From the IMG/VR virus record IMGVR_UViG_3300031963_000072, positions 1-64,000 of that record: DNA of 64,000 nt, one strand, 5' to 3'. The notes under the pieces are model-generated. The model saw nothing but the letters and a program-made list of their open reading frames with translations, did not search any database and was not told the origin of the DNA. This DNA is from a virus. The translations under genes were made by a program, and so were the position numbers. Shown here piece by piece: positions 28,968 to 43,592 of this stretch. Positions within the stretch are counted from its first letter, which is position 1, and each line of letters starts with the position of its first letter.

Positions 28968-29229
28968 ATTCGTTCTCCAGTGTGTCTTTGTCAACAATGA
29001 ATAGCTTTCCCTCGGGTGTCTTAAGAATGGCATCTCTCGGTCCCACAGAAACTACCGTATATAAAATACCGTTGCGCTTAATTTTTAAGTCGGGTGAAAG
29101 AAGTGTCTTTTCTTTTCCGTCAACATTACCTTTAAAAGTAGCATCAACTTCTTCTGTAAGTCGAGCGAGTCTTGTTTCCCATTCTTCTCTCATAATTCTT
29201 ATGATATCTGCGTCTTCAAGCTTCTTCAT
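28957..29229 (-). CDS. hypothetical protein
   Basis: IIRIMREE leader; ATATTTA upstream. Confidence 0.7.
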   Translation of the reverse strand: MKKLEDADIIRIMREEWETRLARLTEEVDATFKGNVDGKEKTLLSPDLKIKRNGILYTVVSVGPRDAILKTPEGKLFIVDKDTLENEYVI

Positions 29230-29659
29230 GACTACTAAATATAACGTCAGAAAATCTATTTACGACAATGCCGCACGTTCGCAATATAGTCAATCCTGAC
29301 ACGTCTCTATATTCTTGATCATAAACTACTTCAGATATGTTGGCGTTCACTATTAACTTGGCACATTGCTGACACGGAGAGTGGGTCAAGTACATGATCT
29401 TGTTGCGATTGAAATTGTAATCACATTTGACCAAGGCATTGACTTCAGCGTGAATAAATCCACTGTGTCCTGGATCATTTGAGTCTGGTTGATGTGGACC
29501 ACCTCTGTAATTTCCATTGTATCCAAGAGCAAGCAGCCTTGTGTTATCATCGGATACAATGATTGTGCCTACCTTTAGCCTTGGGTCATAAGACCTTTCA
29601 GCTACAGTCTTGGCTATGGTCATCCACGTCTGATGCCACGTAGGTCTATTGACTTCCAT
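29216..29659 (-). CDS. dCMP deaminase
   Basis: RPTW, GYNG, HAE, SPCQQC. Confidence 0.92.
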   Translation of the reverse strand: MEVNRPTWHQTWMTIAKTVAERSYDPRLKVGTIIVSDDNTRLLALGYNGNYRGGPHQPDSNDPGHSGFIHAEVNALVKCDYNFNRNKIMYLTHSPCQQCAKLIVNANISEVVYDQEYRDVSGLTILRTCGIVVNRFSDVIFSSHEEA

Positions 29660-30227
29660 GTATTTTCTGTCTCTGGTCTATGGAGAGGTGGTGTGAATAG
29701 CATCTCGGCTCATACAGTTCTGAACCGCCAACTTCTATTTCTTCTCCTCCTGTCTGTTTCTTGTGCGTATAGTGTGCATCTCTACCACACACAGTACAGA
29801 CTGCAGTGCATTTCTCGACCTGGGTTGCCCAAACTAGCATTTTTTCTATTTCGCTAAATGGTTTTCCTGCAGCTGACATTTCAAGAGAAGAAACAACTAT
29901 TGTGAATCCATAAGTAAAAAGCCACGTCAAAGCATCTGCTGAACCTGGTATCATAAAAGCTTCATCGACTGCAACAACGTGCGGTTCTTCATCGAGGCTT
30001 GTCAGATATTCAAGTATTTCAGCCCCTGTTTTTACACATACGGCCGGGACCTTCCAACCGCTATGAGTGGCAACTTCACTATAGCTGTATCTATCGTCTA
30101 TATTTGGCTTAAAGATTACAATCTTTTTATGCTGATATTTGTATTTTTCAAGAGTTGAAAGAAGGCGACTTGTTTTTGAAGAAAACATTGGCCCGCAGTA
30201 AACAATAAACTCTGGGTTATTTAGCAT
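29646..30227 (-). CDS. tdk: thymidine kinase
   Basis: GPMFSSKT, DEA, CTVCG, YEPRC; start moved to MLNNPEF. Confidence 0.92.
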   Translation of the reverse strand: MLNNPEFIVYCGPMFSSKTSRLLSTLEKYKYQHKKIVIFKPNIDDRYSYSEVATHSGWKVPAVCVKTGAEILEYLTSLDEEPHVVAVDEAFMIPGSADALTWLFTYGFTIVVSSLEMSAAGKPFSEIEKMLVWATQVEKCTAVCTVCGRDAHYTHKKQTGGEEIEVGGSELYEPRCYSHHLSIDQRQKIHGSQ

Positions 30228-31189
30228 TTCTTTACCTCGTACCCTTTTACGATATCCCAGTTCTCTTCGTACCAAGCTATTGTTCTATCAAGACCTTCCC
30301 AAAATTGAACTTCAGGAACATATCCAATTTCTGACTTAATCAAAGACAAGTTTGCGTGCGTGTGCATCACATCACCAGGTCGCCAAGGAGCTGTAACATA
30401 CTTTGCATCTGGATACTTTTTAATTAAAAAATTAAGAATTTCTATGTTTTTCGTTTTGCTTCCACACGCGACGTTAAAATAATCTCCGTGAAATTCTTTT
30501 TCAGAAATGGCTGCCTTGTAGAAGGCCTGCGTTGCGTTGTCTACGTAACATAAGTCTCTTGATTGTGATCCGTCTCCGTCAGATCTCATGGGTTTTCCGC
30601 TTTTTATCGCAGTTAACCAGGCAGAAACAGCAGTTGAGTAAGGAGATCCGCCAAGCTGTCTAGGACCGAATACATTGAATAATCGCAAGCTTGCAGATTC
30701 AAGCTTATAATGCATCCAATATTGAATCAAATAGTCTTCTACGATAGACTTTTGCAAAGCATAGGGTGACTTAGGATTCTTCTGATATTCTTCTGAAGTA
30801 GGTAAAGTATCAGCGCCTCCGTAAACAGAAGAGGAGGAGGCAAATATAAATCTCTTTATATTCTTATTTGTGCAAGCATTGACTAAAGAAAGAGTCTTGG
30901 TCACGTTTGTTTCATGTGACTCAAGTGGGTGGTCGACAGAAAAAGAAACTCTTGGAATTGCCGCCAAATGAAAAACGTAGTCGTATGTTTTATCCTCAAT
31001 CTTCCGCAAAACTTCTCTGGAAGAAAAATCGTCGCAAAGAAATTCTTTGACAGACGGATTGACGTATTCCTTGTAACCGCTAGCCAGATTATCTACTACG
31101 GTGACTTCCCAACCATTAGAAATTAATCTGTCGGTCAAATGACTTCCAATGAATCCTGCACCGCCTGTTACTAATGCTCTTTTTTTCAT
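30221..31189 (-). CDS. NAD-dependent NDP-sugar epimerase/dehydratase
   Basis: TGGAGFIG, SSSSVYG, YALQK, NVFGPRQ, RPGDV. Confidence 0.92.
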   Translation of the reverse strand: MKKRALVTGGAGFIGSHLTDRLISNGWEVTVVDNLASGYKEYVNPSVKEFLCDDFSSREVLRKIEDKTYDYVFHLAAIPRVSFSVDHPLESHETNVTKTLSLVNACTNKNIKRFIFASSSSVYGGADTLPTSEEYQKNPKSPYALQKSIVEDYLIQYWMHYKLESASLRLFNVFGPRQLGGSPYSTAVSAWLTAIKSGKPMRSDGDGSQSRDLCYVDNATQAFYKAAISEKEFHGDYFNVACGSKTKNIEILNFLIKKYPDAKYVTAPWRPGDVMHTHANLSLIKSEIGYVPEVQFWEGLDRTIAWYEENWDIVKGYEVKKC

Positions 31190-31203: not shown

Positions 31204-31521
31204 CTATTTTAGAATTCTTTTTATAATTTGAGTCTTGAATTTTTCTGGGAATTCAAATTGATCAGCATAATAAACGATAGACTCGTTCCACTCTTTCACC
31301 AGATGAGATTCTTCAACACCTGCCATGTCTTGTTCAATCTCAGTCCAGATTCTATGCAACAATTTCTTGTCGTTGATTACGTTGAAGTCTTCAGAAGCTG
31401 CCTCTACAAGATAGACAAAATTTTCAAAATTCTTAGGAGGTAATCTCCTCTCAATTACGATCTTTTTTATCTGATCCTGAAGAGAATCCCTGATAATTTT
31501 CTTTATTTGATAAATGTCCAT
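31204..31521 (-). CDS. hypothetical protein
   Basis: IKKIIRD leader; ATAATTA upstream. Confidence 0.65.
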   Translation of the reverse strand: MDIYQIKKIIRDSLQDQIKKIVIERRLPPKNFENFVYLVEAASEDFNVINDKKLLHRIWTEIEQDMAGVEESHLVKEWNESIVYYADQFEFPEKFKTQIIKRILK

Positions 31522-31531
31522 AAAGTAATTA

Positions 31532-32527
31532 TCAAGTTTTCCAGAAGCTGTAGAGATTCTTCTCTACTTCATAAGGCATTAACTTGACAGGACGCTGAGG
31601 CTGTGATGCAGCCCAGACAAACATTTTCTCTATTAGATCTTCGAAGTTTGTGTCATCTTTAAAGTTGAGATGTTCAATGGCTTTAGAATGATCACAATAG
31701 GCAATCTGAACTTCATCTCTTGCCTCAAGATGAACTACGCTTGTAGTATAGCCAAGTTTTTGAGCAACAGAGCAGAACATCTTTGAAGCCTCTAGAATCG
31801 ATATCTTAGAATCCGCGCCAATATTGTAGATCTCTCTATCACCTAGTGTCATCAAAGATTCAAAAGGCTCCATGTAATACTTGATGTCAGAAAAAGACCT
31901 GATCTGGGAACCGTCACCGTAGATGGTAATGGGCTGACCAGACAATGTTTGTCTAATCCAGATTCCAAGTACATTCCTGTATTTATCCCAGATATTCTGG
32001 TATATGCCGAACACGTTGTGAGGTCTTACTACCGAGTAGTTGAGATCAAATAAGCGAGAAGCGTGCTTCAGATCGAGCTCAACAGCGTATTTTGCAATTC
32101 CATACGGATCTTCAGGAGAGGGAACCATATCCTCTGTGTAAGGTGAGCTACATTCACTCCCGTAGACATCCATCGAAGAAGAAAATATTATTTTCTTTAC
32201 ACCGCCATTAATGCAACTGTTGATAACATTTGCAGAAGCAACCACATTGTTGGTGTAATTGAAGCTTCTAATAAAAGGACTCAATCCCACGGCAGCATAT
32301 GCAGCAAAATGATAGACATAGTCTGGTTTTGTGTCTTTGAAAATCTGTCCCACATTTTTTTGATCCGCTAAATTTACCTGGTGGAAAACCAGGCGTGAAT
32401 CAACGTTTTCAACATAACCTCCGCTAAGATCATCAATTCCAAAAACTTCGTGACCCTTGTCCAGCAGATGACGAGTTAGGTGAGATCCCAATAGACCAGC
32501 GCAACCTGTTACAATTATTCTAGACAT
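31532..32527 (-). CDS. NAD-dependent NDP-sugar epimerase/dehydratase
   Basis: TGCAGLLG, SSMDVYG, YGIAK, GDGSQIRSF. Confidence 0.92.
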   Translation of the reverse strand: MSRIIVTGCAGLLGSHLTRHLLDKGHEVFGIDDLSGGYVENVDSRLVFHQVNLADQKNVGQIFKDTKPDYVYHFAAYAAVGLSPFIRSFNYTNNVVASANVINSCINGGVKKIIFSSSMDVYGSECSSPYTEDMVPSPEDPYGIAKYAVELDLKHASRLFDLNYSVVRPHNVFGIYQNIWDKYRNVLGIWIRQTLSGQPITIYGDGSQIRSFSDIKYYMEPFESLMTLGDREIYNIGADSKISILEASKMFCSVAQKLGYTTSVVHLEARDEVQIAYCDHSKAIEHLNFKDDTNFEDLIEKMFVWAASQPQRPVKLMPYEVEKNLYSFWKT

Positions 32528-32535: not shown

Positions 32536-33447
32536 TTATATCTTGTCGTTACGAACGTGGAGACTATTATAGCTTACGTCTAGAAGAATTTTACTAGGTT
32601 TCCAACTAAAAAATCTTGCAATTTCTGTAGAAAGATGAGACAAAAATCTCAAATCGGGAGAACCATTTCCCACAGAATCTGTGCTTCTTAATTGACAAAT
32701 GACTTTTAGATTGCCTTGTCTGTTAAGAAAATGTATTGAAGATATACACGTATCGCTAGAATAATAAAAGCGACGCGTGTCAAGATTCTGAGGAGTTTTA
32801 TAAGGATTGTCTCCGGCAGTCTCTCTAGAGATGATTTCTTTACACTTGCTCAATATCTCCTTAAAGTATTGAGCTTCATGCTCAATTTCTAGACAGTCTA
32901 CGTCGCTGTACTCTGGGGGTAGATTAAACCTTGCTCTAAACTGAACTTCTGCTTTCTCGTCCAATTTAGTCCACATTCTACTGAGAGAGCCAAAGACGGA
33001 AGGCGTAAGTTGCTCGTACTGATTTAGTGACTTCAAAGCCCTAGAAGTTAGAGATTCTCTATCGAGTTCTTCCCTGATGACAAGAACGTTGGGCAAAAAA
33101 GAAATCTTCTTGACTTCATCTTCAAAAATGTCGTGGAGGCGAACAAGGGAATCCTTGTCTTGAAAATCATCTCCTCTAACGCTAAGACGATCTATTAAAA
33201 CATCTTTTGCAGGTAATAGAACGATAAAGAAATTGTTTCCATCACACAGCTCTTCTCTAAGCGAATTTCTCAGATCTTCAGCAGCTGGCCTGTCGTACAG
33301 TCTAGCATAGCATAGCGTAGACAGATACGACCTGTCTCTAATATTCCTTATGTATGAAGTTGCCTTATTGAGGTTGGAATATAGAGAAGTTTTTCCGCTA
33401 CAATCAGGGCCTTCTATAACAACGTAATTGACCGGTAAGAATGTCAT
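32536..33447 (-). CDS. NMP kinase fused to a minimal thymidylate-synthase-like domain
   Basis: N-terminal EGPDCSGKT and DRSYLS; C-terminal RR, C, RSTD, D, SLH; start moved to MTFLPVN (ATGA overlap with dnaE). Confidence 0.75.
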   Translation of the reverse strand: MTFLPVNYVVIEGPDCSGKTSLYSNLNKATSYIRNIRDRSYLSTLCYARLYDRPAAEDLRNSLREELCDGNNFFIVLLPAKDVLIDRLSVRGDDFQDKDSLVRLHDIFEDEVKKISFLPNVLVIREELDRESLTSRALKSLNQYEQLTPSVFGSLSRMWTKLDEKAEVQFRARFNLPPEYSDVDCLEIEHEAQYFKEILSKCKEIISRETAGDNPYKTPQNLDTRRFYYSSDTCISSIHFLNRQGNLKVICQLRSTDSVGNGSPDLRFLSHLSTEIARFFSWKPSKILLDVSYNSLHVRNDKI

Positions 33448-36400
33448 GCCATTTGCCTCATCTTGAAAATAGATGTAGAAAATCCCCACTGTGCGTCGTG
33501 CTGAGCCTTGCAAACCCACAAAGTATAGGGAAGAATATCATCTTGTGGGGTACCCCATACTCTAAGCCTTGCAGTTCTGAATGTATTGTCAAGTGTCTTG
33601 ATTGCATAAAAGACTTTTCCGTTCTTTGTCTTCTTCTTCTCGACAGAAGAAGCGCAGAACCAGCCTATGCCCTCAGATCCTGCAGGAATATCGTGAATAC
33701 TGTAGACCTCTTTTTCCTCCACTTTCCGCATAACGTCCGGTGGAAACATTAAATCGCCGTCGACAGTTGAAGTCAGTTCGTATCTCACGCTTATCTTTTC
33801 AAATCTCTCCCAGTCTTCAACAGTCGAAAGTTCTTCTAGTAGAAAATCGAGTATAGGCATCACAGGCTCACCAAGCTTCTCCTTCTTCTTTAGCTGAGAA
33901 GCAGTGAGACCGTAATAGCCCTTTCTAAGGGTCTCATAGTTATCGCCCTCTGTCAGGGCCATCAAGACCTGCCTATGGTTTGAAACCCTCCCGTACTGAA
34001 AGTCTTCAAGGGATTCAAGCCCTTCGATCTTACAAAGAGATGTTAGAACCGTCTTGTTAATCTTACTCGGCTTCCATTCTCCGTTATCGTTGAACAGAAT
34101 GTCGCTAAGATTCTTGTAGGGTCTTGAGTAAATGATTTCGTCGACTGCGGCCGCACCGATACCTTTCACCGATGTAAGCGGCGGAACAAATGCTTGGGCT
34201 TCGTCAGAATATTGCCACTCTTTGCCAGAATAGTTGATATCGATCTTAGAGAAGGCGTACCCAATCGTCTTAATCTCAGAGATTGCCTTGGCTAGTGCGT
34301 CGGGATTACTGTTTTCCGACTGTAGAATTGTAGCGAGCCATTCTTTCTCGTAATGGGTGTGTAGCCATGCTGCATAGTAGGAGTCAAGTGCATAGGCAAC
34401 CGAGTGAGACTTGTTAAAGCCGTACAGAGAGAAGAACTCGATCTTATCGAACAGCTCGTGCATCATCTTTTCGGGAAGATTATGAAGGCGTTTCGCACCT
34501 TCAACAAACTTCTCACGGAGTGCTGCACGTTCGCCACCCTTCTTGTCTGCCGTGTCGAGAGACTTCTTGACAAGAGTTTTTCTCATTTGGTCGGCTTCAC
34601 CCTCAGTGAATCCTGAAAGTTCCATTGCAAGAAGCATGAATTGCTCCTGGAATGTGATGAATCCTCTCGTTGCGCCGAGAACCTTCTCGATGAGAGGGTG
34701 ATCGTACTTGATCTTCGATAGATCCTTACCAGCATCGACGTACATGTTGTGCACGTTCGCCTTGAGAGGACCAGGTCGATAGATTGCTGTTACCGCAGCA
34801 AGTTCGTCGATGTTATTAGGCTTCGCCTGCATGCAGAATTTGCGTGCGCCGCTGGCGGTAAATTGGAAAACTCCAACGAAGTTTCCTTTATGGTAAACAT
34901 GCTCCCAGACCTTGGGGTCGTCCTGCTTCACGTATCGGCAGTTGAGATGCTTGTCAAAGAATGCTTTGGTGTCTGTAAATGAAGGATTAGGATTACCCTC
35001 TTTGACAAGGATGCGTCTAATGCAGTTCTCTACGTCCTTGAGAAGCGTGAGACCCAAGAAGTCGAACTTAAGGAATCCGTTCTCCTCGAGGTTTCTGAAG
35101 TTCATGCCTTCAGACCAGGGAGTTTGTAGTTCACCACGGACACCAATGATTGGCATCGTAGCAGCCAAGTCATCAGGATCTGCAACGAGAACGCCACCTG
35201 CATGTCGACCTACAGATCGATTCTGCATGAAGAGCGTCTCAACGTGAGCAGCGACGTCGGGATACTTCTCCATGAACGCACGGTATTTCGGAGAATGCTT
35301 CATGCAGTCCTCATGCTTCAGGACGAAAACAGACTTTTCAGTATCGTCATCTCGGGCAAGGTTCATCACCTCATCCTGAAGCGGACCTGTCATCTCGTTA
35401 ACTTCCTCGAAAGGAACACTGTAGATCTTAGCGATGTCCTTGACAAGCGACTTAAGCTTCAAGGTATTGAAGTTGGAGACGGGTATGACGGCATCGTCGC
35501 CGAACAATTCTCGAGCTGCGTCGATCAGAGCATCTCGGTCACCAGCATCGGAGTCAATGTCAGGCCAAGCTACTTTCTGTCGATTGAGAAAGCGTCCCCA
35601 AAGCAAATTGTAGGGGATGGGATCGATCTGCGTAATACCAAGAAGAAAATTGACAAGAGATCCTGCGCCGCTGCCTCTTCCTGGGCCGAGGAGTGTCTTT
35701 GCCTCGGCCTTGTGGAAGATCTTATACATCGTCACGAAGTAAGAAGCGTGCCCAAGGAACTTGATGTCAGACAACTCCATCTTCGCACGTTCAACGTACT
35801 CAGGCTTGTCAGCGAGACCTTCGCGGACGAGTCCTTCCTTGACAAGTTCTGTGAGCTGCTGGAATGTAGACTTCTCTGGTGTATCTAAGTGAGGTAGTTT
35901 CGCCTTCGTAGGAATCCAGGTGTCTTCGCACTCCTGCCAGGCGAGGTCGTGAGTACGCTCGATGGAATCTCTAACTAATTCTTCTGTCCCTCTGTAGAAG
36001 TCGTACTGTTCGTAGGACGCCTTGTACTCGTCCCACATCTGCGAGGCATTTTTGGGGTACAGCTCACACTTGAGATCTTCAAATTTAGGAAGAGCAGACT
36101 GTTCTAGCTTGGCACCCATCCACCCAAGCTTCTTGTACAGCTCGCGAGCCTGCCATTTAGAAGGATCCGGGTAGTGAGAATCGCAGGTTGAAACGAGCGG
36201 GATACCTGTCTTCCTGTGAAGTTCTATGAGATACTTGTTAACAGTGTGCTGTTTTTCAAGCTTATTGAATTGCAGCTCGAGGAAAAAGTTGTTACGCCCG
36301 ACAGACTCTACAAATCTGTCTGCTACATTCTCAATGTCATTGAGAATCTCGATCTCAGACTTACCGTGAGCCTCACCGAGCAGAATTTTGGAAGAAAAAT

Positions 36401-37770: not shown

Positions 37771-38754
37771 TTACTTGTTACCCTTCCAGGCATCGTGTTG
37801 TGCCTTAAGTCCATCCCAGTCTTTCATATCTGCGTTCCACAGTTCGGTGAACCTCTTCTGTGGACCATCTCCGTGCGTACCGTTGATTTCCTCCCTCGTG
37901 CACTGGTAGATCGTGTCGTTTGGGTGGAACTCAAACTTGTCGTTCTTCGGAATTGGCCAGTATAGGTTAGTGCCACGAGACACGAACTTGTCACCTTCCT
38001 TCACTCGGAAGGTCTTGATGTAGTGCATATCGGGCTTGTTGAAGTCAATCACCGAGGTAAATTCAGGAATTACCTTGGCAACTTCCACCGCCATTCTCGA
38101 TGCCAGGAGGTTATCGGCAGCAGGCTGGATCTGTGTGTCCATGCGCTGGTAGATGAAACCGATGAGGTCCTTGAGGGAGAGGCGCATGTAGTAGAACGAG
38201 GTCATGCACTTCGGAAGAACAAGACGTGCATCCATCATAGAGACTACCTTGGAGTCGACCATCTCAGCATACAGTTCCTTGGAGTCATTCACGATCTTCT
38301 CCCATCGGCGAAGGAAGTCAGGGGAATTCTGCACAGGCTCTGGGATCACGACGTCATCATCACGAAGGTCACGGTCACCAGTACACTGGGCGGCGAAGGT
38401 GCCGGCTCGGTGACGGATGATATGGGTCACCTCCTGGAAGGACAGGCCACTGAGTCGGAAGGTGAATCCGAGGCATTCCATTGGGGCAGGAAGAGTGCGA
38501 CCACCGAACACGTCCTCGAGGTTCTTGGATAGTTCTTGCTGAGACACACCTTCTGTCGGGTCGATGTCAGGACGGTCTGCCCACGTGGCCTTGACGTAGT
38601 GCCATGCCACGTTCCACGCCTGTTGGCGGGTCGGATGATCGACAAGTTCCACTTTGAGGGCGTCGAGGTTATTGAGGAAAGTGGTCTTCGGTTCTTGACC
38701 GAACTTGAGGACCATTGGGAGTTCGATTGGTTCTAGGTCTTTGTTGATGGGCAT
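37771..38754 (-). CDS. non-canonical ThyX-family flavoprotein
   Basis: PMECLGFTF, HIIRHR..TF, DARLVLP, FIYQR; the ThyX SxR motif is replaced by CTG. Confidence 0.75.
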   Translation of the reverse strand: MPINKDLEPIELPMVLKFGQEPKTTFLNNLDALKVELVDHPTRQQAWNVAWHYVKATWADRPDIDPTEGVSQQELSKNLEDVFGGRTLPAPMECLGFTFRLSGLSFQEVTHIIRHRAGTFAAQCTGDRDLRDDDVVIPEPVQNSPDFLRRWEKIVNDSKELYAEMVDSKVVSMMDARLVLPKCMTSFYYMRLSLKDLIGFIYQRMDTQIQPAADNLLASRMAVEVAKVIPEFTSVIDFNKPDMHYIKTFRVKEGDKFVSRGTNLYWPIPKNDKFEFHPNDTIYQCTREEINGTHGDGPQKRFTELWNADMKDWDGLKAQHDAWKGNK

Positions 38755-38811: not shown

Positions 38812-39369
38812 TTACAATAGCTGGTTAAGTGCGTCAAGGAAAGATTTTTGTAGAAAATCTGGTATTGCTCTGCGATAGTCTACTGGGCGGAAGGCATGTC
38901 GATCAACAGCAACGTTGAAGTGATTGTCATGATCTGGTGTGTCTGCACGGTGCGTGTGACCGTGAACGACATGCTCGACCATACCCAGAGTAGAAATGTC
39001 TAGCCCACGAGAAATTGCGTCTTCGAGAGGATAATGTACGAGCAGAACTCCCCCAAGATTAACGTGTGTGAGAACTCTCTCGAATCCGGCGTTCAGATAC
39101 CATCCGTCAGGAAGGTGATCATGATTGCCTCTAATCAGAATCTTTCTACACCTGAGCGACTGTATGATCGATAGTAATTCTTCGTGTCTACCCTTGAGAC
39201 TTGCTGTAAGATCTCCCACGAAGATCATTAAATCTTGAGAATTTGCAACTGCATTTAGCGAAGCAAGCATCTCACGATTCATGTGATCGACGTCAGAAAA
39301 GGGTCGACCACAATACTTGATTATGTTCTCGTGAAAGAAGTGGTGATCTGAAGAAAAGAATACATTCAT
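38812..39369 (-). CDS. calcineurin-like metallophosphoesterase
   Basis: SDHHFFH, GD, GNHD, HYP, HGHTH. Confidence 0.9.
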   Translation of the reverse strand: MNVFFSSDHHFFHENIIKYCGRPFSDVDHMNREMLASLNAVANSQDLMIFVGDLTASLKGRHEELLSIIQSLRCRKILIRGNHDHLPDGWYLNAGFERVLTHVNLGGVLLVHYPLEDAISRGLDISTLGMVEHVVHGHTHRADTPDHDNHFNVAVDRHAFRPVDYRRAIPDFLQKSFLDALNQLL

Positions 39370-41036
39370 GCCTTGATTACAGATCTTACATAAGATCTGA
39401 TCAAGTTTTCATTCTTAGATTTAGAGGAAGAGATACTCGACATCGCACGCCAGACTCCGAGCTTCTCTTTCTTTCCGAGCCAGTCCGGTAGATTTTGAAT
39501 GAAACTCTGTGAGTCACCAGAACTGAGATAACCTCTCATTGCAGTTCCGCTGATGCCTCCCGTAGTAGATCTAGATACTGCAATTGGAACTATTCTGCCC
39601 TTCATCTCTGGGTTCTTGGCAAGAATGGCATCTACCCTCTGTTGTGCATCGTTCTCGCCTGCTGAGTCAACTCCGCCGTAGAGACGAACTACAGTCTTCT
39701 TGCCCCTGCTGACAAGGTCCTTCGCAATCAGAAGCGCCTCTCTCATAGGGGCATCCGAGAATCTAATAATAACTTTATCTCCGTACTGAGATGAGATTCC
39801 CGGGATATAGAAGTCACGCCACAACGGAATCATGTCCTCAGCGGTAACTTCTTCTCTTCCTCCCGTAGAAACAAACACTATGACAGAATCATTTCCGTCA
39901 GAGACTGCCTGTCGTATAAGAGAGTCGTGGCCTGCATGGAAAGGTTTAGCAGCCATCGGTATAACAGCAACTTTGTTGGCCCTGTGTGAGCCCGTGCCAA
40001 GAAGTCTTAACTTTGCAGTCAAAAACACGTCTTCCTGCACATTTATGACAGACTTGACCGGATGCGTTGGAAGATCATCGCTCAGGCCATAGACCTCTGA
40101 CGAGAGACGCTGAAGCATCTCAGAAGGATCGCCGGGAGGTAGACGGTCTAGAATGTCATCGACGAGTTCATTAACGAGACGCCAGTATGCTGTCTCCTCA
40201 TCCTCAGTGCCTTTGTAGCGGGATTGTTTTGCGCCGCGAGCATCTTTGCTATGTTGGTCTGCCGCTAGAACCTTGAGTAGTTGCTTCTCAGACATATCGT
40301 CATCTCCGACTTGAAGAACAACTCCTTCCGCAGGGCCGCCGAGTGATGACTCAAGCTGAGAGAAGACGTCTGCAGCCAATTTGACTATAGACATAGGGTC
40401 AGAAAAATCTGTTTCTTTAAATCCTTTAGAGAACAACTCGCGGAGTGAGGGATCGATGCATCCTTTAATGATTGACTCACGAGAGGAAAGATTTCCGTCA
40501 AAAACTACAGGGAATGCGCCTAGCTGCAAGATCTCTCTATGTCTGTTGAGCTCTTCGGAAGAATCTATGAAGTTTGATGAAGAAAAGAGCTGACCTCTAG
40601 AGACTGCGTACTTAGTAGGACCGAAACCGACGAGATACATGCCGTGTTTTCGAGCATAATCTCTCGTAATGGTAGGCTTGTTCTGCACAAACTCCACAAA
40701 AAATTCTGTGTTTGTGGGAATCGCCGCTGTACCTGGATGCACTTTTCTTAGGTGGTCGTGAACAAATTTATACTGAGAAGTACCGAGTGCTGCTGACTTG
40801 ATGTCTTTGTCGCGCTTTTCAAGACCTTGAAATTCCGTGGGATACAAGACATTACCCTTGTAGGCGACTATCCAATTCTTTGTGTAATCTTGATTAAACT
40901 TCTGGTCGTTTCGAATGAGAGTCAGCTTAGTACCGTCGACCTTTTCGACAGCAACAATGTGTTTCCTAACGAAGTCTGCCGCCTTCTTCGGATTTGTAAT
41001 TGCTTTCGATAGAGCCTTGATCGAAATGTCAAGCAT
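39366..41036 (-). CDS. ligase-like (EKxDG) domain fused to a HIGH-type nucleotidyltransferase
   Basis: EKVDG and AEGVV in the N-terminal part; KPFHAGH and ISGTAMR in the C-terminal part. Confidence 0.75.
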   Translation of the reverse strand: MLDISIKALSKAITNPKKAADFVRKHIVAVEKVDGTKLTLIRNDQKFNQDYTKNWIVAYKGNVLYPTEFQGLEKRDKDIKSAALGTSQYKFVHDHLRKVHPGTAAIPTNTEFFVEFVQNKPTITRDYARKHGMYLVGFGPTKYAVSRGQLFSSSNFIDSSEELNRHREILQLGAFPVVFDGNLSSRESIIKGCIDPSLRELFSKGFKETDFSDPMSIVKLAADVFSQLESSLGGPAEGVVLQVGDDDMSEKQLLKVLAADQHSKDARGAKQSRYKGTEDEETAYWRLVNELVDDILDRLPPGDPSEMLQRLSSEVYGLSDDLPTHPVKSVINVQEDVFLTAKLRLLGTGSHRANKVAVIPMAAKPFHAGHDSLIRQAVSDGNDSVIVFVSTGGREEVTAEDMIPLWRDFYIPGISSQYGDKVIIRFSDAPMREALLIAKDLVSRGKKTVVRLYGGVDSAGENDAQQRVDAILAKNPEMKGRIVPIAVSRSTTGGISGTAMRGYLSSGDSQSFIQNLPDWLGKKEKLGVWRAMSSISSSKSKNENLIRSYVRSVIKA

Positions 41037-42243
41037 TGATCTTTATGCCTCTTCGTCTAAATGTTTCTGCTACTCTTACTTTATATTTCTTGTAGTAGTC
41101 GCTTTGCAACTTCTCAAGTAGGTCTTGATGACTTTGAAGGAATGGAAACTTCTGCATGAACAACGAGACAGCACCCATTTTTGCAGATCTGTCAACTTCT
41201 GGATTGTATGCGTCGAGAGCTTGCCCTTGCCCAAAAAGTTTGTCATTTACGAAATCTAAAAATACTGAGTCTATCTGCGAGTCATCAAGGTGATCCGACA
41301 TTAGCTGAAGTATGCCAACGAAGGAATCGAGGAGTTGCAATTCATTACCTACTGGTTCCTCGCCGAATATTAGCGAGAATATTTCTTTCTTGGTCCTGGC
41401 ATAAGTAGAAGAACTGGTTGGGATCTCTTTGAATGCTCTCATTCCGTTCACAATGACGGGAGAACCATCGGGCAAAAACTGTTGCTCAGCATTCGCTCTG
41501 AGCCCTCTGTCGACTGAAAAAGACAGTAGAGAAAGAGGTGAAGTCCTCTTTGCCACTTTTATTGCCTCTGGGGGCTCAAGTGGACTTTTAGGAGTTAGAA
41601 CTACAGCATCAATCTGCGTGGAAGCCGCTTTTGCAAGACCCCTGAGAATGTACTTATGAAAAACTCCCTTGATACCAGACTTGATGTCTTCCCAAGAAGA
41701 AGAATGACCGAACTTAGAAAATTCATCGGGACCTCCTGTTTTTCCATATTCGACTCCTTCGAAATCGATTTGTACATTAATAGGAGAATCTAGGTTCTTT
41801 GATTTGTAAGAAAAAAGAGAATTAATTTGGTGACCTTCCCCTTGATCTTCTTTATTTTGTCCTATGTAAGTCACGTTGGGAGTTATTGACCTTCCCTGTA
41901 CTTTGGCAAGAAGATCAAATATTGTCTTTAGCTTTTCGTGAGGAACAGTTAAGTCTATGTCGCCAACAGTAGGTTTGTACTCTACGAACTCTTCATCAGA
42001 CATCTGCTTGTTAAAAAGGTGCTCTGAAGATCCGTTAAACGCCTGACCTGAAGAGAGAAGAGAATCTCTTGTCTTCGAAGGCCAGATCGGCTCTCCAAAC
42101 ACCTTGTTGTGCATGTCGTCAAGCTTCTTAAGAGCATCCAGAAAATGTCTAGTGAACTCAGCTCTGCTTATGCTTCTGAAGTCTGGTTTTCCTGCCTTCT
42201 GGTATTTTCCTTCTACGTCTTTTACTAGAACATTACCGCCCAT
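41029..42243 (-). CDS. Pol-beta-superfamily nucleotidyltransferase
   Basis: NGSS, GDIDL, QIDF, KGVFHK; ATAGTTA upstream. Confidence 0.7.
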   Translation of the reverse strand: MGGNVLVKDVEGKYQKAGKPDFRSISRAEFTRHFLDALKKLDDMHNKVFGEPIWPSKTRDSLLSSGQAFNGSSEHLFNKQMSDEEFVEYKPTVGDIDLTVPHEKLKTIFDLLAKVQGRSITPNVTYIGQNKEDQGEGHQINSLFSYKSKNLDSPINVQIDFEGVEYGKTGGPDEFSKFGHSSSWEDIKSGIKGVFHKYILRGLAKAASTQIDAVVLTPKSPLEPPEAIKVAKRTSPLSLLSFSVDRGLRANAEQQFLPDGSPVIVNGMRAFKEIPTSSSTYARTKKEIFSLIFGEEPVGNELQLLDSFVGILQLMSDHLDDSQIDSVFLDFVNDKLFGQGQALDAYNPEVDRSAKMGAVSLFMQKFPFLQSHQDLLEKLQSDYYKKYKVRVAETFRRRGIKINA

Positions 42244-42279
42244 TCTTGTATCCTTCGTCTGATAACTATGAAGGTAATG

Positions 42280-43218
42280 TCAGAGGGTAGGAATAAATTC
42301 AACTGGATTTCTTTCCCGAGGAACATATACGACGTTATTGATTCCTCTGACCTCTTGATTATAAGACTTCTCAGGAACAAGAACCTTCACGCCATGTTTA
42401 GCATATTCTGCAGCATGCTTTGCAGAATCGTCTATCGCGAAATATTTACCCGTACTATAGAAGACTTGTTTAGAAAGCCAAATAAACTTTTCTGGAGCAA
42501 AAGCAACCCCATCTGCATCGATATCGTTTCTCTTGAGCCAGGTATAAGTGTCATAGAAGCACGCAAGCTCATTTGACGGTCTCGACGTAAGGATCTGAAT
42601 CCAGAAACCCTTGTCTTTGAGATAGTTTAGTAGATCGATATAGACCTCGTCACGCTCGAGCATCGCAAGACCATGACAGTCCATAAACTCTTTGAAATAT
42701 CCTTCGCTATTAACGCCGAGGCGTTTGAATTCTCGAACGTTATAGTACTCATCACTCTCAGGATCTATGAAATGGCCGCACTTTTTAGAAGACCACTCGC
42801 AGAACGACTTTCTGAAGTTTGCAAGAACATCATCCATGTCAAAAATAGCAACTGGCTGACCTTGCCACCGCCTGCCAGACAGCCTATGCCTGTAGTGGAG
42901 GAAGTCATCCTTTTGACTCAGAGCAGCTGCAAAATTATTCCCATCAATTTCCCAGAGGTTTAGGATGGCAAGAATATAACGATATGCATCAACAGTCTTA
43001 TAAAGAATCTTAGCCTTATCAACAGGCTCAGAAGCACAACGGTGATCTTTGTAATTAACAGACTCAACGATACCTGTCGCCTCTGAATGAAGAGCAAGCA
43101 CAAGAGTCTTTAATTGTTCTTCTCTTTGCTCATTAGTAAGGCTGGTGGCCTCGAAGAAAAGGTCCGAGAATGCTTTTTGAGCCTCTAAAGATTCGCTTAG
43201 ATTTGACCAATTCATCAA
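42280..43218 (-). CDS. degenerate all-alpha NTP-PPase domain fused to a HAD 5'-nucleotidase
   Basis: HAD motifs DMDDV, TSR, K, IDD; N-terminus resembles the neighbouring NTP-PPase. Confidence 0.75.
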   Translation of the reverse strand: MMNWSNLSESLEAQKAFSDLFFEATSLTNEQREEQLKTLVLALHSEATGIVESVNYKDHRCASEPVDKAKILYKTVDAYRYILAILNLWEIDGNNFAAALSQKDDFLHYRHRLSGRRWQGQPVAIFDMDDVLANFRKSFCEWSSKKCGHFIDPESDEYYNVREFKRLGVNSEGYFKEFMDCHGLAMLERDEVYIDLLNYLKDKGFWIQILTSRPSNELACFYDTYTWLKRNDIDADGVAFAPEKFIWLSKQVFYSTGKYFAIDDSAKHAAEYAKHGVKVLVPEKSYNQEVRGINNVVYVPRERNPVEFIPTL

Positions 43219-43592
43219 TAATCTTTCTTTAGTCTGTCGTGGATTATTCCATCTTTTCTAACGTAAGCATGAAACAACTCATCAGCATCAATTCCAAGCA
43301 TCACAAGAACTGACAGGAAGTAGTTAAAAGCGTCAACATACTCCTCAAGGAAAGCCTCGTGGTCGAAGTCTGCAACTTCTGTGGTCCTGTGAGGCTTCCA
43401 GTTCTTGAGGTGAGCAAGTGACTCAAACATTTCCTCTACACCCTTTAGAACGGTATCTCTCACGACTTGCTGAGATTCTTTCTTGGAGATGTCGACAGGC
43501 CAGTCTTGCAACACAGCAGGCCTCTTCTCTGCCAAATCTTTCATAAACTTCTCTCGAAGCTGAAGCATTTTTGTTAACTTACAACTATCCAT
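43215..43592 (-). CDS. all-alpha dNTP pyrophosphatase (dimeric dUTPase/dCTPase, MazG-like)
   Basis: EEMFE, WKPH, EEYVD, YVRK..R..DY. Confidence 0.82.
   Translation of the reverse strand: MDSCKLTKMLQLREKFMKDLAEKRPAVLQDWPVDISKKESQQVVRDTVLKGVEEMFESLAHLKNWKPHRTTEVADFDHEAFLEEYVDAFNYFLSVLVMLGIDADELFHAYVRKDGIIHDRLKKDY

What the first reader, a model, noticed from the sequence alone, without database searches (positions are those of the whole stretch)
29216..43592. Candidate undescribed DNA base-modification pathway clustered around dnaE
Seen together: dCMP deaminase, Tdk, two NDP-sugar epimerases, the kinase-TS(Asp) fusion, DnaE, NDT, the atypical ThyX and the NTP-PPase/HAD pair. Known: T-even phages combine a TS-family dCMP modifier, a kinase, a dCTPase and sugar transfer to make glycosylated cytosine. 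Inference: an analogous but distinct pathway in a DnaE-using phage, possibly a sugar-modified cytosine. It may explain the MBD4-like glycosylase and the GpC/GNC purge if those are the modified contexts. No glycosyltransferase was seen in this window.
Basis: inference. Interest (0 to 1): 0.8.

Follow-up and report, generated by a model that had tools for sequence, protein, structure and literature searches.

The report
Jumbo-phage nucleotide module, possible modified cytosine
A widespread group of uncultured freshwater giant phages keeps, next to its DNA polymerase gene, a nucleotide-supply gene cluster that includes a kinase fused to a stripped-down thymidylate-synthase-like enzyme shaped to grip cytosine nucleotides, which hints at, but does not prove, chemically altered cytosine in their DNA.

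Summary
The block is not a chance grouping. Within 10 kb of the fusion gene, 80 of 80 IMG/VR loci hold DnaE, 70 of 80 hold TK and 70 of 80 hold dCMP deaminase. An SDR epimerase is present in 46 of the 53 loci that have both flanks.

The unusual element is a 303-aa protein whose start overlaps the dnaE stop (ATGA). It joins a YorR/Tmk-type kinase (Z 14.5) to a 140-aa minimal thymidylate-synthase fold (Z 8.5-10.0 to seven TS-superfamily chains; next hit 6.2). This domain keeps the catalytic Cys and carries Asp at the ThyA-N177 position, which selects cytosine.

A canonical ThyX and Tmk lie elsewhere in the window, so the fusion and the atypical ThyX are extra genes.

I read the block as ordinary dNTP supply plus a probable pre-replicative dCMP-modifying step of unknown chemistry (confidence 0.45).

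The sugar part is unsupported. I found no GT1/GT2 match in the 81.9 kb held, relatives' GT clusters lie far away with their own SDRs, and there is no GpC purge (odds 0.92-0.95).

This scan noted the same fusion earlier on another genome (e1-5659294).

The parts
29216..29659 (-). dCMP deaminase (147 aa)
   Evidence: Pfam dCMP_cyt_deam_1 2.9e-21, 75.7 bits. Found in 70 of 80 related loci.
29646..30275 (-). Thymidine kinase (209 aa)
   Evidence: Pfam TK 2.3e-38. Found in 70 of 80 loci.
30221..31189 (-). Extended-SDR UDP-hexose/HexNAc 4-epimerase-like protein (322 aa). It is the widely conserved SDR ortholog that lies downstream of the fusion.
   Evidence: Pfam Epimerase 5.6e-54. PDB 6dnt 4.7e-57, WbgU, WbpP. 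Under every NCBIfam equivalog cut-off. In the tree it falls in the clade of 50 'downstream' SDRs, support 0.998.
31204..31521 (-). 105-aa ORF of unknown function between the two SDR genes
   Evidence: No Pfam or PHROG match. No tblastn match in the 80 loci.
31532..32527 (-). Second extended-SDR 4-epimerase-like protein (331 aa), lineage-restricted paralog
   Evidence: Pfam Epimerase 1.3e-47. PDB 4zrm UDP-glucose 4-epimerase 5.9e-45. Falls in a small clade of 6 in the SDR tree.
32536..33447 (-). Fusion protein (303 aa). Residues 3-147 form a YorR/thymidylate-kinase-type P-loop kinase. Residues about 160-303 form a minimal thymidylate-synthase-fold domain with Cys234, Arg254-Ser255, Asp257, Asp265 and His297.
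   Evidence: Model pLDDT 94.1. N-domain: Z 14.5 to YorR 3kb2. C-domain: Foldseek top hits AfhB 9iqu 1.3e-05 and T4 dCH 2.4e-05. Domain-only model: Z 8.5-10.0 to 7 TS-superfamily chains, next hit 6.2. hhalign to T4 gp42 and RB69 gp48. Residue table for 78 homologs.
33444..37058 (-). DnaE-type replicative polymerase (1204 aa). Its TGA stop overlaps the ATG of the fusion gene (ATGA).
   Evidence: Pfam DNA_pol3_alpha 1.5e-48, finger, PHP, HHH_6. Overlap read. DnaE within 10 kb in 80 of 80 loci. It is the immediate same-strand upstream neighbour in 52 of 77.
37126..37587 (-). Nucleoside 2-deoxyribosyltransferase (153 aa)
   Evidence: Pfam Nuc_deoxyrib_tr 49.3 bits. Family profile hits PDB 6evs at 5.5e-15, with Glu88 invariant in the family and aligned to a Glu of 6evs. 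Present in 5 of 5 large relatives.
37587..37814 (-). 75-aa ORF of unknown function
   Evidence: No family match.
37771..38754 (-). Atypical second ThyX (327 aa). It keeps RHR, but has Cys-Thr-Gly-Asp where the canonical ThyX of this same genome has Ser-Ala-Arg-Tyr. It also carries a conserved C-terminal extension of about 90 aa.
   Evidence: Thy1 65.2 bits. NCBIfam thyX 35.6 bits against a cut-off of 87.9. Alignment with 33 homologs and the canonical copy. 68% mean column identity. Present in 5 of 5 large relatives.
38812..39369 (-). Metallophosphoesterase (185 aa). Not part of the conserved module.
   Evidence: Metallophos_2 6.4e-07, phrog_547 3.3e-35. 0 of 80 loci.
39366..41036 (-). 556-aa protein with a C-terminal cytidylyltransferase-like (HIGH nucleotidyltransferase) domain. 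Not part of the conserved module.
   Evidence: phrog_27149 7.6e-35 over residues 2-345. Nearest Atlas clusters carry CTP_transf_like in 92-96% of members, score 0.95-0.96. 4 of 80 loci.
41029..42243 (-). 404-aa viral protein, possibly a Pol-beta-type nucleotidyltransferase (a lead only). Not part of the conserved module.
   Evidence: phrog_19290 1.4e-51. Nearest Atlas cluster with a Pfam family: NTP_transf_2 on 33% of members, score 0.94. 0 of 80 loci.
42280..43218 (-). 312-aa fusion. The N-terminal 119 aa is a degenerate copy of the neighbouring NTP-PPase domain. The C-terminal part is a HAD 5'(3')-deoxyribonucleotidase-like domain with the Asp pair of motif I.
   Evidence: hhalign of the N-terminal part against the NTP-PPase family: probability 95%, E 3.6e-08, 109 columns. 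Three of the family's five invariant acidic residues are replaced. HAD part: NT5C 17.3 bits (under its cut-off); phrog_415 8.2e-11 (annotated polynucleotide kinase) scores best; phrog_2643 1.1e-06. Sequence.
43215..43592 (-). All-alpha NTP pyrophosphohydrolase (MazG / dimeric-dUTPase type, 125 aa). Substrate not assignable.
   Evidence: dUTPase_2 25.5 bits. phrog_12184 2e-16. The family profile gives only weak PDB hits to dimeric dUTPases (E 0.037) and dCTP pyrophosphatase 1 (E 0.2-0.7). Present in 5 of 5 large relatives.
51538..52784 (-). Canonical ThyX (52125-52784) and canonical thymidylate kinase (51538-52128). They lie outside the finding but bear on it.
   Evidence: Thy1 1.6e-35 and Thymidylate_kin 2.9e-12. 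A canonical ThyX plus the atypical copy are found in 4 of 5 large relatives.
12303..14566 (-). HhH-GPD glycosylase (12303-12716), UDP-sugar pyrophosphorylase-like protein (12713-13687) and Nudix hydrolase (13718-14566). They lie outside the finding and may be related to it.
   Evidence: HhH-GPD 45.3 bits. UDPGP 30.1 bits, over its cut-off of 22. Nudix PHROGs.

Best explanation
The stretch is the core nucleotide-supply block of an uncultured, DnaE-replicating jumbo phage from fresh water.

Most of its genes do ordinary work:
- dCMP deaminase and TK feed the thymidylate branch.
- NDT, an NTP pyrophosphatase and a 5'-deoxyribonucleotidase-like HAD protein recycle and rebalance deoxynucleosides.

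Two genes are not ordinary.

(1) The 303-aa protein translated in tandem with DnaE joins a Tmk/YorR-type kinase to a 140-aa minimal thymidylate-synthase domain. The most likely mechanism is as follows. The TS-like domain binds dCMP, with Asp265 reading the cytosine face. Cys234 attacks C6, and a substituent is placed on C5 from a co-substrate that is probably not bound the way folate is in ThyA. The fused kinase then phosphorylates the product, a host NDP kinase finishes the triphosphate, and DnaE incorporates it. This would be a T4 gp42+gp1-like step carried in one polypeptide.

(2) A second, strongly conserved ThyX with changed substrate-contact residues sits in an NDT/NTP-PPase/HAD sub-cluster. 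Its substrate is unknown.

Shown here: fold, residues, fusion, coupling to dnaE, synteny, and redundancy with a canonical ThyX+Tmk.
Inferred: the substrate, the chemistry, incorporation into DNA, and any sugar.

The two epimerases are long-standing members of the module, but nothing here ties them to DNA.
For: Fold:
- Full-length model, pLDDT 94.1, pTM 0.89.
- N-domain: Z 14.5, rmsd 2.6, 140 residues aligned to YorR 3kb2.
- Foldseek's 50 listed hits are all TS-family chains; the top ones are AfhB dCMP hydroxylase 9iqu (1.3e-05) and T4 dCMP hydroxymethylase 6l18 (2.4e-05).
- A domain-only model (pLDDT 92.9) was searched against 48,161 chains without Foldseek. The seven best are ThyA, the flavin dCMP monooxygenase 9iqc, T4 dCH and MilA (Z 10.0-8.5, 131-136 of 148 residues aligned). 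The next chain scores 6.2.

Residues:
- hhalign puts Cys234 on the Cys of T4 gp42 printed at 148 and Asp265 on the Asp printed at 179 (E 5.8e-05).
- The same Cys, Arg-Ser, Asp and His columns align with RB69 gp48 (E 2.9e-04).
- PMC13326640 (sections 24 and 28, read) states that Asp at ThyA-N177 confers dCMP preference and that C146 is the catalytic Cys.
- Among 78 homologs, Asp265 is present in 78. Cys234, Arg254-Ser255 and His297 are each present in 77. The whole set, including the Arg-Arg pair, is intact in 76.

Coupling to dnaE:
- ATGA overlap with the dnaE stop.
- DnaE within 10 kb in 80 of 80 loci, and the immediate upstream neighbour in 52 of 77.

Redundancy:
- A canonical ThyX and Tmk lie at 51538-52784.
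- Canonical plus atypical ThyX are found in 4 of 5 large relatives.

Precedent:
- In DLP3, RB69 and RL38J1 a YorR/Tmk-like 'nucleotide kinase' gene lies in the same cluster as the TS homolog that makes 5-hydroxy-dCMP (PMC13326640, Table 1). Here the two are fused.

Family size:
- 218 proteins at E <= 0.001 among 1283 candidates.
- 393 representatives at E <= 0.001 among 1.84 billion. Nearly all full-length ones are 290-330 aa with the domain at about 155-300.
Against: - No direct evidence that the DNA is modified. The public runs that hold this DNA are kept only as assembled contigs, which cannot show modification.
- The TS-like domain is about 105 residues shorter than T4 gp42 (141 against 246). 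It ends 6 residues after His297, so parts that close over the cofactor in ThyA may be missing.
- Pfam's Thymidylat_synt model matches nothing in the window protein or in 5 records.
- The ThyA-D169 position is Asp in 31, Glu in 13 and Asn in 34 of 78 homologs. This argues against one fixed cofactor contact. The window protein lacks the Asn that the published work uses to recognise 5-hydroxy-dCMP synthases.
- One complete relative (G007, 239.5 kb with terminal repeats) has lost Cys, Arg-Ser and His in this domain. It keeps the kinase P-loop, MazG, NDT and both ThyX genes. So the TS chemistry is dispensable there, and the other genes do not depend on it.
- The NTP-PPase cannot be called a dCTPase.
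- The kinase could be a deoxynucleoside kinase rather than a dNMP kinase: M. mycoides dAK scores Z 14.1 against 14.5 for YorR.
Confidence: 0.45

Rival explanations
1. Ordinary salvage and pool sanitation, with no modified base. The block only recycles host nucleotides and cleans the dNTP pool for a large phage living in oxidising surface water. In this reading the TS-like domain is a dCMP/dUMP-binding regulatory or specificity module of a phage dNMP kinase, and the second ThyX is a divergent flavoprotein.
For: - The neighbourhood in relatives is full of housekeeping and repair genes: DHH phosphoesterase (50 of 77 loci), SOD-like (56 of 77), GMP reductase, Fpg, HhH-GPD, pterin carbinolamine dehydratase and DnaJ.
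- The window also has a Nudix protein, RNR, and a canonical ThyX and Tmk.
- G007 keeps the kinase while the TS residues decay.
- The domain lacks about 100 residues of a normal TS, and no Pfam TS match exists.
- No dCTPase can be named.
Against: - Cys234, Arg-Ser, Asp265 and His297 are kept in 76-78 of 78 homologs at 25-57% identity. That is hard to explain for a mere binding module.
- The phage already has a Tmk.
- A fusion of a TS-fold domain to a kinase is the pattern expected for substrate hand-over.
- The closest solved relatives by fold are all enzymes that modify C5 of (d)CMP or dUMP.
Confidence: 0.3
2. The TS-like step makes a hydroxylated or hydroxymethylated cytosine, which is then glycosylated on DNA with a UDP-sugar prepared by the two 4-epimerases. 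The resulting sugar-modified cytosine would resemble those of T-even, RB69/DLP3 or RL38J1 phages.
For: - SDR epimerases flank DnaE and the fusion in 46 of 53 loci with both flanks. They are the immediate downstream neighbour in 41 of 77. Two old ortholog clades exist, one upstream of DnaE and one downstream.
- Both window SDRs match UDP-hexose/HexNAc 4-epimerases best.
- A UDPGP-like pyrophosphorylase lies at 12713-13687.
- 34 of 78 homologs carry Asn at the D169 position, the published 5-hydroxy-dCMP synthase signature (PMC13326640, section 28).
- The one complete relative with a decayed TS domain has no Epimerase, GT1 or GT2 match at all. That is n = 1.
- Uncorrected for relatedness or truncation: 3 of 44 Asp/Glu-type loci lack an SDR nearby, against 16 of 34 Asn-type loci.
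Against: - No GT1/GT2 match in the 81.9 kb held.
- None of the 10 conserved clusters absent from the window that were scanned with Pfam is a glycosyltransferase.
- GT clusters in G004, G005 and G006 lie far from the module. In G004 and G006 they contain SDR genes of their own, like the surface-glycan clusters described for jumbo phages (PMC7824862, passage from section 22).
- G008 (87% complete) has an intact fusion and two module SDRs but no GT1/GT2 match.
- The window protein itself has Asp, not Asn, at the D169 position.
Confidence: 0.12
3. The non-canonical enzymes make a modified pyrimidine nucleotide or nucleoside that does not go into DNA. One model is a MilA/MilB-like route: a TS-like CMP modifier plus an NDT-fold enzyme, with UDP-sugar chemistry, giving a small molecule. 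The product could also be a signalling or inhibitory nucleotide.
For: - MilA is among the seven TS-superfamily fold matches (Z 8.5).
- An NDT-fold gene and UDP-sugar enzymes are in the same module.
- The ThyX-like protein has lost residues that, in the canonical copy, occupy the Ser-x-Arg-Tyr stretch.
Against: - The gene is translationally coupled to the replicative polymerase and sits among dNTP-supply genes.
- The fused partner is a Tmk/YorR-type kinase.
- The NDT matches true deoxyribosyltransferases, not CMP hydrolases.
Confidence: 0.05

Closest known systems
T4 dCMP hydroxymethylase gp42 with dNMP kinase gp1 and dCTPase gp56 (the hydroxymethylcytosine pathway)
   Same: - TS fold, Z 9.1 to 6l18.
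- Catalytic Cys and the cytosine-selecting Asp align.
- A kinase acts on the same nucleotide.
- An all-alpha NTP-PPase, dCMP deaminase and TK are encoded alongside.
   Different: - The domain is about 105 residues shorter than gp42.
- It is fused to a Tmk/YorR-type kinase, not a gp1-type one.
- No Pfam TS match.
- The polymerase is DnaE, not family B.
- No dCTPase can be assigned.
- No glucosyltransferase found.
Flavin-dependent 5-hydroxy-dCMP synthases (RB69 gp48, DLP3 gp80, HY126 AfhB; PDB 9iqu/9iqc) with their neighbouring YorR/Tmk-like 'nucleotide kinase' (PMC13326640, sections 24, 25 and 28 read)
   Same: - Best Foldseek hit is 9iqu (1.3e-05); Z 9.9 to 9iqc.
- Asp at the N177 position.
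- A kinase of the YorR/Tmk type partners the TS homolog; the shared GPD-x-x-GK P-loop aligns with RB69 gp45 (E 1.4e-05 over 24 columns only).
- 34 of 78 family members have the D169-to-Asn signature.
   Different: - The window protein has Asp at that position.
- The domain is 140 aa against 217-238.
- Kinase and TS are one polypeptide.
- No arabinose-5-phosphate isomerase, sugar kinase/uridylyltransferase or GT cluster lies beside it.
- The sugar genes present are 4-epimerases.
Bacillus SPbeta YorR (PDB 2axp/3kb2) and thymidylate kinases
   Same: The N-domain matches at Z 14.5 and at profile E 2.1e-12, with the same P-loop and Arg-Gly-Asp lid stretch in the printed alignment.
   Different: YorR and Tmk are single-domain proteins. 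YorR's own substrate is not established.
Canonical flavin-dependent thymidylate synthase ThyX
   Same: The 327-aa protein passes Pfam Thy1 (65.2 bits) and keeps RHR.
   Different: - It fails the NCBIfam equivalog cut-off (35.6 against 87.9).
- It has Cys-Thr-Gly-Asp where the genome's own canonical ThyX has Ser-Ala-Arg-Tyr.
- It has lost the later Glu/Arg stretch.
- It has a conserved extension of about 90 aa.
- It coexists with a canonical copy.

Membership tests
Thymidylate synthase superfamily (ThyA / dCMP hydroxymethylase fold) | The TS fold | tested here: met
   With the domain-only model, the seven best of 48,161 chains are all TS superfamily (Z 10.0-8.5, 131-136 of 148 residues aligned, rmsd 3.1-3.6). 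The next chain scores Z 6.2. Foldseek probability is 1.00 for 9iqu, 6l18 and 1b5d.
Thymidylate synthase superfamily (ThyA / dCMP hydroxymethylase fold) | Catalytic Cys (ThyA C146) | tested here: met
   Cys234 aligns with the Cys of T4 gp42 and of RB69 gp48. It is present in 77 of 78 homologs.
Thymidylate synthase superfamily (ThyA / dCMP hydroxymethylase fold) | Arg-Ser of the R166-S167 motif and the His that contacts the deoxyribose | tested here: met
   Arg254-Ser255 and His297 align with the matching columns of gp42 and gp48. Each is present in 77 of 78. The equivalence of Arg225-Arg226 to ThyA R126-R127 is my inference from the motif; the alignments do not show it.
Thymidylate synthase superfamily (ThyA / dCMP hydroxymethylase fold) | Complete cofactor (folate) site and a match to the curated family model | tested here: inconclusive
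   Pfam PF00303 gives no match in the protein or in 5 records. The domain is 141 aa against 246 in gp42. The tools give no view of the pocket.
dCMP-specific branch (gp42, MilA, 5-hydroxy-dCMP synthases) | Asp at the ThyA-N177 position | tested here: met
   Asp265 aligns with the Asp of gp42 and gp48. It is present in 78 of 78 and is invariant in the 52-row alignment. The meaning of the residue is taken from PMC13326640, section 24.
5-hydroxy-dCMP synthases (RB69 gp48 type) | Asn at the ThyA-D169 position (the diagnostic proposed in PMC13326640, section 28) | tested here: not met
   The window protein has Asp257. Among 78 homologs the position is Asp in 31, Glu in 13 and Asn in 34.
Glycosylated-cytosine pathways (T-even, RB69/DLP3, RL38J1) | A DNA glycosyltransferase encoded with the TS homolog | tested here: inconclusive
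   PF00534 and PF00535 give 0 matches in the 81,920 bases held. That record is rated 25% complete, and only two GT families were searched. None of the 10 conserved clusters (absent from the window) that were scanned with Pfam is a glycosyltransferase.
Glycosylated-cytosine pathways (T-even, RB69/DLP3, RL38J1) | A dCTPase that removes dCTP from the pool | tested here: inconclusive
   An all-alpha NTP-PPase is present. Its family profile matches dimeric dUTPases (E 0.037) and dCTP pyrophosphatase 1 (E 0.2-0.7) about equally weakly.
ThyX (flavin-dependent thymidylate synthase) | Family model match plus the Ser of the ThyX motif (the RHR-X7-S motif is recalled, not taken from a call) | tested here: not met
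   Pfam Thy1 is passed (65.2 bits). NCBIfam thyX gives 35.6 bits against a cut-off of 87.9. The Ser, Arg and Tyr of the genome's canonical copy are Cys, Gly and Asp here.
Nucleoside 2-deoxyribosyltransferase | Family model match and the catalytic Glu | tested here: met
   Pfam 49.3 bits, over the cut-off of 28.8. The profile hits 6evs at 5.5e-15. Glu88 is invariant in the family and aligns to a Glu of 6evs. That this Glu is the catalytic one is recalled.
UDP-hexose 4-epimerase (extended SDR) | Family match, plus the Ser and Tyr-x-x-x-Lys catalytic motifs rather than the dehydratase Asp-Glu pair | tested here: inconclusive
   Pfam Epimerase is passed. NCBIfam galE gives 154.9 and 149.1 bits against a cut-off of 262.3. 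The best solved relatives are 4-epimerases. Tyr-x-x-x-Lys and a Ser-rich stretch can be read in the sequences printed; the meaning of these motifs is recalled.

The most novel reading that the evidence does not exclude
A whole clade of freshwater and marine jumbo phages replaces cytosine through a minimal, folate-independent thymidylate-synthase domain. The domain hands its product directly to a fused kinase and on to a DnaE replisome. The Asp/Glu/Asn variants at the D169 position would mark different C5 chemistries, and the module's 4-epimerases would supply a sugar that an unrecognised transferase adds to the DNA. The conserved second ThyX could be the flavin partner that the stripped-down TS domain lacks.
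Probability: 0.12. Interest if true: 0.88.

Novelty: new variant of a known kind. Interest (0 to 1): 0.62.

Why it matters
Phage pyrimidine hypermodification starts from TS-family enzymes. Every characterised one I saw is a full-size, stand-alone protein (PMC13326640).

This one is different. It is a 140-aa core that Pfam does not recognise, fused to a kinase and coupled to a DnaE polymerase. It occurs in about 400 protein clusters from uncultured phages.

If it is active, three things follow:
- The minimal catalytic unit of the superfamily is redefined.
- A new cofactor solution becomes likely.
- A large, abundant freshwater phage group is marked as probably carrying non-canonical cytosine. 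That would bias metagenomic sequencing and affect restriction and CRISPR sensitivity.

If it is inactive, it is a clean example of a TS fold recruited as a nucleotide-binding module.

Either outcome can be tested with one expression construct.

Tried and rejected
- Close cultured relatives: none. Megablast of the stretch against 50,697 phage records found nothing. tblastn with the fusion found 1 weak record (E 8e-4, 33% of the query). DnaE reaches at most 26.9% identity.
- Single-sequence PDB searches with the 125-aa, 312-aa, 404-aa and 556-aa proteins gave nothing usable.
- GpC/GNC depletion: not seen. These are raw odds only; no codon-aware control was run.
- Read-level evidence for modification: the one run search returned 20 rows from 17 studies, all kept as assembled contigs. 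I therefore did not use read laying, because contigs cannot show modification. The habitat labels are mostly freshwater. Ten rows may be the source sample.
- Homodimer test of the TS-like domain (complex prediction): no verdict (score 0.00, mark 0.42). I do not count it either way.
- Literature: four searches found no description of a kinase/mini-TS fusion. What I read: sections 24, 25, 28 and 29 and passages of PMC13326640; passages only of PMC7824862 and PMC8670742. Supplementary files were not opened and may list such fusions. The He et al. paper on HY126 AfhB was not found in the library; I know it only through PMC13326640 and the PDB titles.
- The idea that the 312-aa protein is a T4-type polynucleotide kinase/phosphatase was dropped. 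Its N-terminal part is a copy of the NTP-PPase domain, not a P-loop kinase.
- The idea that the NDT is a DNPH1/Rcl-type dNMP hydrolase is not supported. All 17 NDT-fold hits among the 19 listed are deposited as deoxyribosyltransferases. This is no proof against hydrolase activity.
- PHROG scans of the three largest ORFs beyond the window found nothing.

Full report
WHAT IS THERE

The stretch 29216-43592 is a run of minus-strand genes with short or overlapping junctions.
- dCMP deaminase (75.7 bits), thymidine kinase (132.3 bits), and two extended-SDR 'Epimerase' proteins (183.5 and 162.7 bits).
- A nucleoside 2-deoxyribosyltransferase (49.3 bits) and a Thy1/ThyX-family protein (65.2 bits).
- A 1204-aa DnaE with PHP, alpha, finger and HhH domains, and a 125-aa dUTPase_2/MazG-type NTP pyrophosphatase (25.5 bits; phrog_12184 2e-16).
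- A 312-aa HAD protein. Its NT5C match (17.3 bits) is under the cut-off; its best PHROG match is phrog_415 (8.2e-11, annotated polynucleotide kinase), with phrog_2643 (5'-3' deoxyribonucleotidase) at 1.1e-06.

Both SDRs match solved UDP-hexose/HexNAc 4-epimerases best (6dnt 4.7e-57, WbgU, WbpP; 4zrm 5.9e-45). Neither reaches any NCBIfam equivalog cut-off.

The N-terminal 119 residues of the HAD protein are a second copy of the NTP-PPase domain (hhalign probability 95%, E 3.6e-08). This copy has lost three of the family's five invariant acidic residues.

The three genes at 38812-42243 are a metallophosphoesterase, a 556-aa protein and a 404-aa protein. The nearest Atlas clusters of the 556-aa protein carry CTP_transf_like. 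The nearest family-bearing cluster of the 404-aa protein carries NTP_transf_2 on a third of its members. None of the three is a glycosyltransferase.

THE FUSION

The real start of the fusion gene is the ATG at 33447. It overlaps the TGA of dnaE (ATGA) and has a GAGG eight bases upstream.

An alignment of 27 homologs gave a confident model (pLDDT 94.1, pTM 0.89). Residues 3-147 are a YorR/thymidylate-kinase fold: Z 14.5, rmsd 2.6, 140 residues aligned to 3kb2, with Tmk chains at Z 13 and M. mycoides deoxyadenosine kinase at 14.1. The profile hits YorR at 2.1e-12.

For the whole model, Foldseek's listed hits are all thymidylate-synthase-family chains. They are led by the phage HY126 dCMP hydroxylase AfhB (9iqu, 1.3e-05) and T4 dCMP hydroxymethylase.

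I then modelled the last 148 residues alone from a 52-row alignment (pLDDT 92.9) and compared the model with 48,161 chains without Foldseek. The seven best are ThyA (Z 10.0, 9.8, 9.2, 9.2), the flavin-dependent dCMP monooxygenase 9iqc (9.9), T4 dCH (9.1) and MilA (8.5). Each aligns 131-136 residues spanning nearly the whole target chain. The next chain scores 6.2. So this is a TS fold with about 100 residues removed.

hhalign places Cys234 on the catalytic Cys of T4 gp42, Arg254-Ser255-x-Asp257 on its Arg-Ser-Asn-Asp, and Asp265 on its Asp179 (E 5.8e-05). The same columns plus His297 align with RB69 gp48 (E 2.9e-04).

PMC13326640 (sections 24 and 28) states three things. C146 is the catalytic Cys of ThyA. 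Asp at the N177 position gives dCMP preference. Asn at the D169 position marks the new flavin-dependent 5-hydroxy-dCMP synthases.

HOW CONSERVED

The family has 218 members at E <= 0.001 among 1283 candidates in the 90%-clustered collection. Almost all are 296-330 aa. In 1.84 billion 50%-identity representatives there are 393 hits (159 at 1e-10, 75 at 1e-30). The full-length ones carry the domain at about 155-300. A few 165-200-aa hits may be stand-alone forms or fragments.

A scan of IMG/VR gave 88 relatives, of which 80 loci were kept.

By tblastn with window proteins, the counts within 10 kb of the fusion are as follows:

| Gene | Loci of 80 |
|---|---|
| DnaE | 80 |
| TK | 70 |
| dCMP deaminase | 70 |
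| SOD-like protein | 59 |
| SDR (322 aa / 331 aa query) | 58 / 55 |
| NDT | 42 |
| ThyX-like | 34 |
| HAD | 24 |
| NTP-PPase | 23 |
| 556-aa protein | 4 |
| 404-aa protein | 0 |
| Phosphoesterase | 0 |

Many loci are cut by contig ends. In the 53 loci with at least 9 kb on both sides, the ORF-cluster counts are DnaE 53, TK 48, deaminase 48, SDR 46, NDT 32, ThyX-like 27, MazG 20 and HAD 17.

DnaE is the immediate same-strand upstream neighbour in 52 of 77 loci. An SDR is the immediate downstream neighbour in 41 of 77.

The usual order is MazG - HAD - ThyX-like - NDT - SDR - DnaE - fusion - SDR - TK - DHH - deaminase - SOD-like.

The SDRs form two old clades, one always upstream of DnaE and one downstream. 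The window has the common downstream ortholog plus a rare paralog, and it lacks the upstream one.

RESIDUES ACROSS THE FAMILY

In 78 proteins (77 loci plus the window, not dereplicated):
- Asp265 is present in 78.
- Cys234, Arg254-Ser255 and His297 are each present in 77.
- The whole set, including Arg225-Arg226, is intact in 76.

The D169-equivalent position is Asp in 31 (including the window), Glu in 13 and Asn in 34.

The single decayed protein comes from G007, a complete 239.5-kb genome with terminal repeats. It keeps the kinase P-loop.

IS IT ONE PATHWAY?

The phage has a canonical ThyX (1.6e-35) and a canonical Tmk (2.9e-12) at 51538-52784. So dTMP supply does not need the fusion or the atypical ThyX.

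Canonical and atypical ThyX coexist in 4 of 5 large relatives. The fifth is 70% complete.

The atypical ThyX is very conserved: 68% mean column identity, and present in 5 of 5 large records at E <= 1e-146. It keeps RHR. It has Cys-Thr-Gly-Asp where the genome's own canonical copy has Ser-Ala-Arg-Tyr. It has lost a later Glu/Arg stretch and carries a conserved 90-aa tail.

MazG and NDT are likewise present in 5 of 5 records, clustered with the atypical ThyX. This holds even in G007, where the TS-like domain is dead.

So there are at least two separable units: the fusion next to DnaE, and the MazG/HAD/ThyX-like/NDT sub-cluster.

In relatives the surrounding genes include a DHH phosphoesterase, GMP reductase, Fpg, an HhH-GPD glycosylase, pterin carbinolamine dehydratase and DnaJ. 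That is the look of a salvage, repair and pool-sanitation block.

THE SUGAR QUESTION

PF00534 and PF00535 find nothing in the 81,920 bases held for this genome. CheckV rates that record only 25% complete.

None of the 10 frequent clusters absent from the window that I scanned with Pfam, out of those found in the 80 loci, is a glycosyltransferase.

Three large relatives (G004, G005, G006) have multi-GT clusters tens of kilobases or more from the module. In G004 and G006 these clusters contain SDR genes of their own. This resembles the surface-glycan clusters described for jumbo phages (PMC7824862, passage of section 22).

G008 (87% complete) has an intact fusion and two module SDRs but no GT1/GT2 match.

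On the other side, G007, the genome with the decayed TS domain, has no Epimerase, GT1 or GT2 match at all. Also, loci with Asp/Glu-type fusions lack a nearby SDR in 3 of 44 cases, against 16 of 34 for Asn-type. That count is not corrected for relatedness or truncation.

A UDPGP-like pyrophosphorylase sits at 12713-13687.

These are hints, not a link.

OTHER CLAIMS

GpC is not depleted (odds 0.92-0.95; GNC 0.87-0.99). An HhH-GPD glycosylase exists at 12318-12647. The NTP-PPase cannot be assigned to dCTP or dUTP.

The public runs holding this DNA are kept only as contigs, so they say nothing about modification.

VERDICT

The best reading (0.45) is that the block is ordinary dNTP supply plus one probable pre-replicative dCMP-modifying step. 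That step would be carried out by a new, minimal, kinase-fused member of the TS superfamily, with unknown chemistry.

The reading without any modification remains serious (0.30). The sugar-modified-cytosine reading is possible but weakly supported (0.12).

Compared with known systems, it works like T4 gp42+gp1 and like the RB69/DLP3 5-hydroxycytosine clusters. It differs in domain size, fusion, polymerase type and the D169 residue, and it lacks a recognised transferase. I class it as a new variant of a known kind.

The same fusion was noted and followed up earlier in this scan on another genome (e1-5659294). I did not use that as evidence.

Noticed in passing
window 7210-11649 (+): Complete SpoVR-like / YeaH-like / PrkA(YeaG)-like trio on the opposite strand. 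The 644-aa protein matches phrog_22605 at 1.9e-130. It is 31-34% identical to 'serine kinase' genes of Thermus phages (phiYS40, TMA) and to Ralstonia phage RsoM2USA.
   Followed up: partly
window 58912-59988 (-): 358-aa actin-fold protein matching Pfam Volactin at 9.7e-68 (229.4 bits), a family named after an archaeal actin. It lies among replication genes (DnaB, exonuclease, UvsX, SSB).
   Followed up: no
window 12303-14566 (-): An HhH-GPD glycosylase, a UDP-sugar pyrophosphorylase-like protein (UDPGP 30.1 bits) and a Nudix hydrolase lie in a row. In relatives the HhH-GPD and an Fpg glycosylase sit directly upstream of MazG-HAD-ThyX-like-NDT.
   Followed up: partly
L076 10001-10858 (record G007): In a complete 239.5-kb relative the TS-like domain has lost Cys, Arg-Ser and His, while the kinase P-loop is kept. 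The same genome has no Epimerase, GT1 or GT2 match.
   Followed up: partly
fusion homologs in L001-L080: The ThyA-D169-equivalent residue is Asp in 31, Glu in 13 and Asn in 34 of 78. Asn is the published signature of 5-hydroxy-dCMP synthases. Asn-type loci lack a nearby SDR more often (16 of 34 against 3 of 44, uncorrected).
   Followed up: partly
L002, L003, L063, L076, L078: In several relatives dnaE is called as two ORFs with other ORFs between or beside them (for example 588 + 775 aa with a 306-aa ORF between). This suggests inserted elements or split polymerase genes.
   Followed up: no
window 28242-29033 (-): A 263-aa protein with an Fe/Mn superoxide dismutase C-terminal domain (1.8e-19) is a conserved member of the module, present in 56 of 77 loci. 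A weak ferritin-like match lies at 45198-45749.
   Followed up: no
window 47138-48525 (-): An HNH endonuclease (HNH_5 1.7e-16) lies next to a DNA methyltransferase (phrog_67 1.5e-40). So at least simple methylation of the phage DNA is likely.
   Followed up: no
whole record G000: CheckV rates the 81,920-base record as 25% complete. A relative of 284 kb is rated 100%. The phage is therefore probably a jumbo phage of roughly 240-330 kb. A baseplate-hub match (phrog_150) lies at about 76.5-77.3 kb of the record.
   Followed up: partly
window 24354-25109 (-): A 251-aa protein with a weak NAD-synthetase PHROG match (2.6e-08). Homologs lie in the conserved downstream part of the module in a few relatives.
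   Followed up: no
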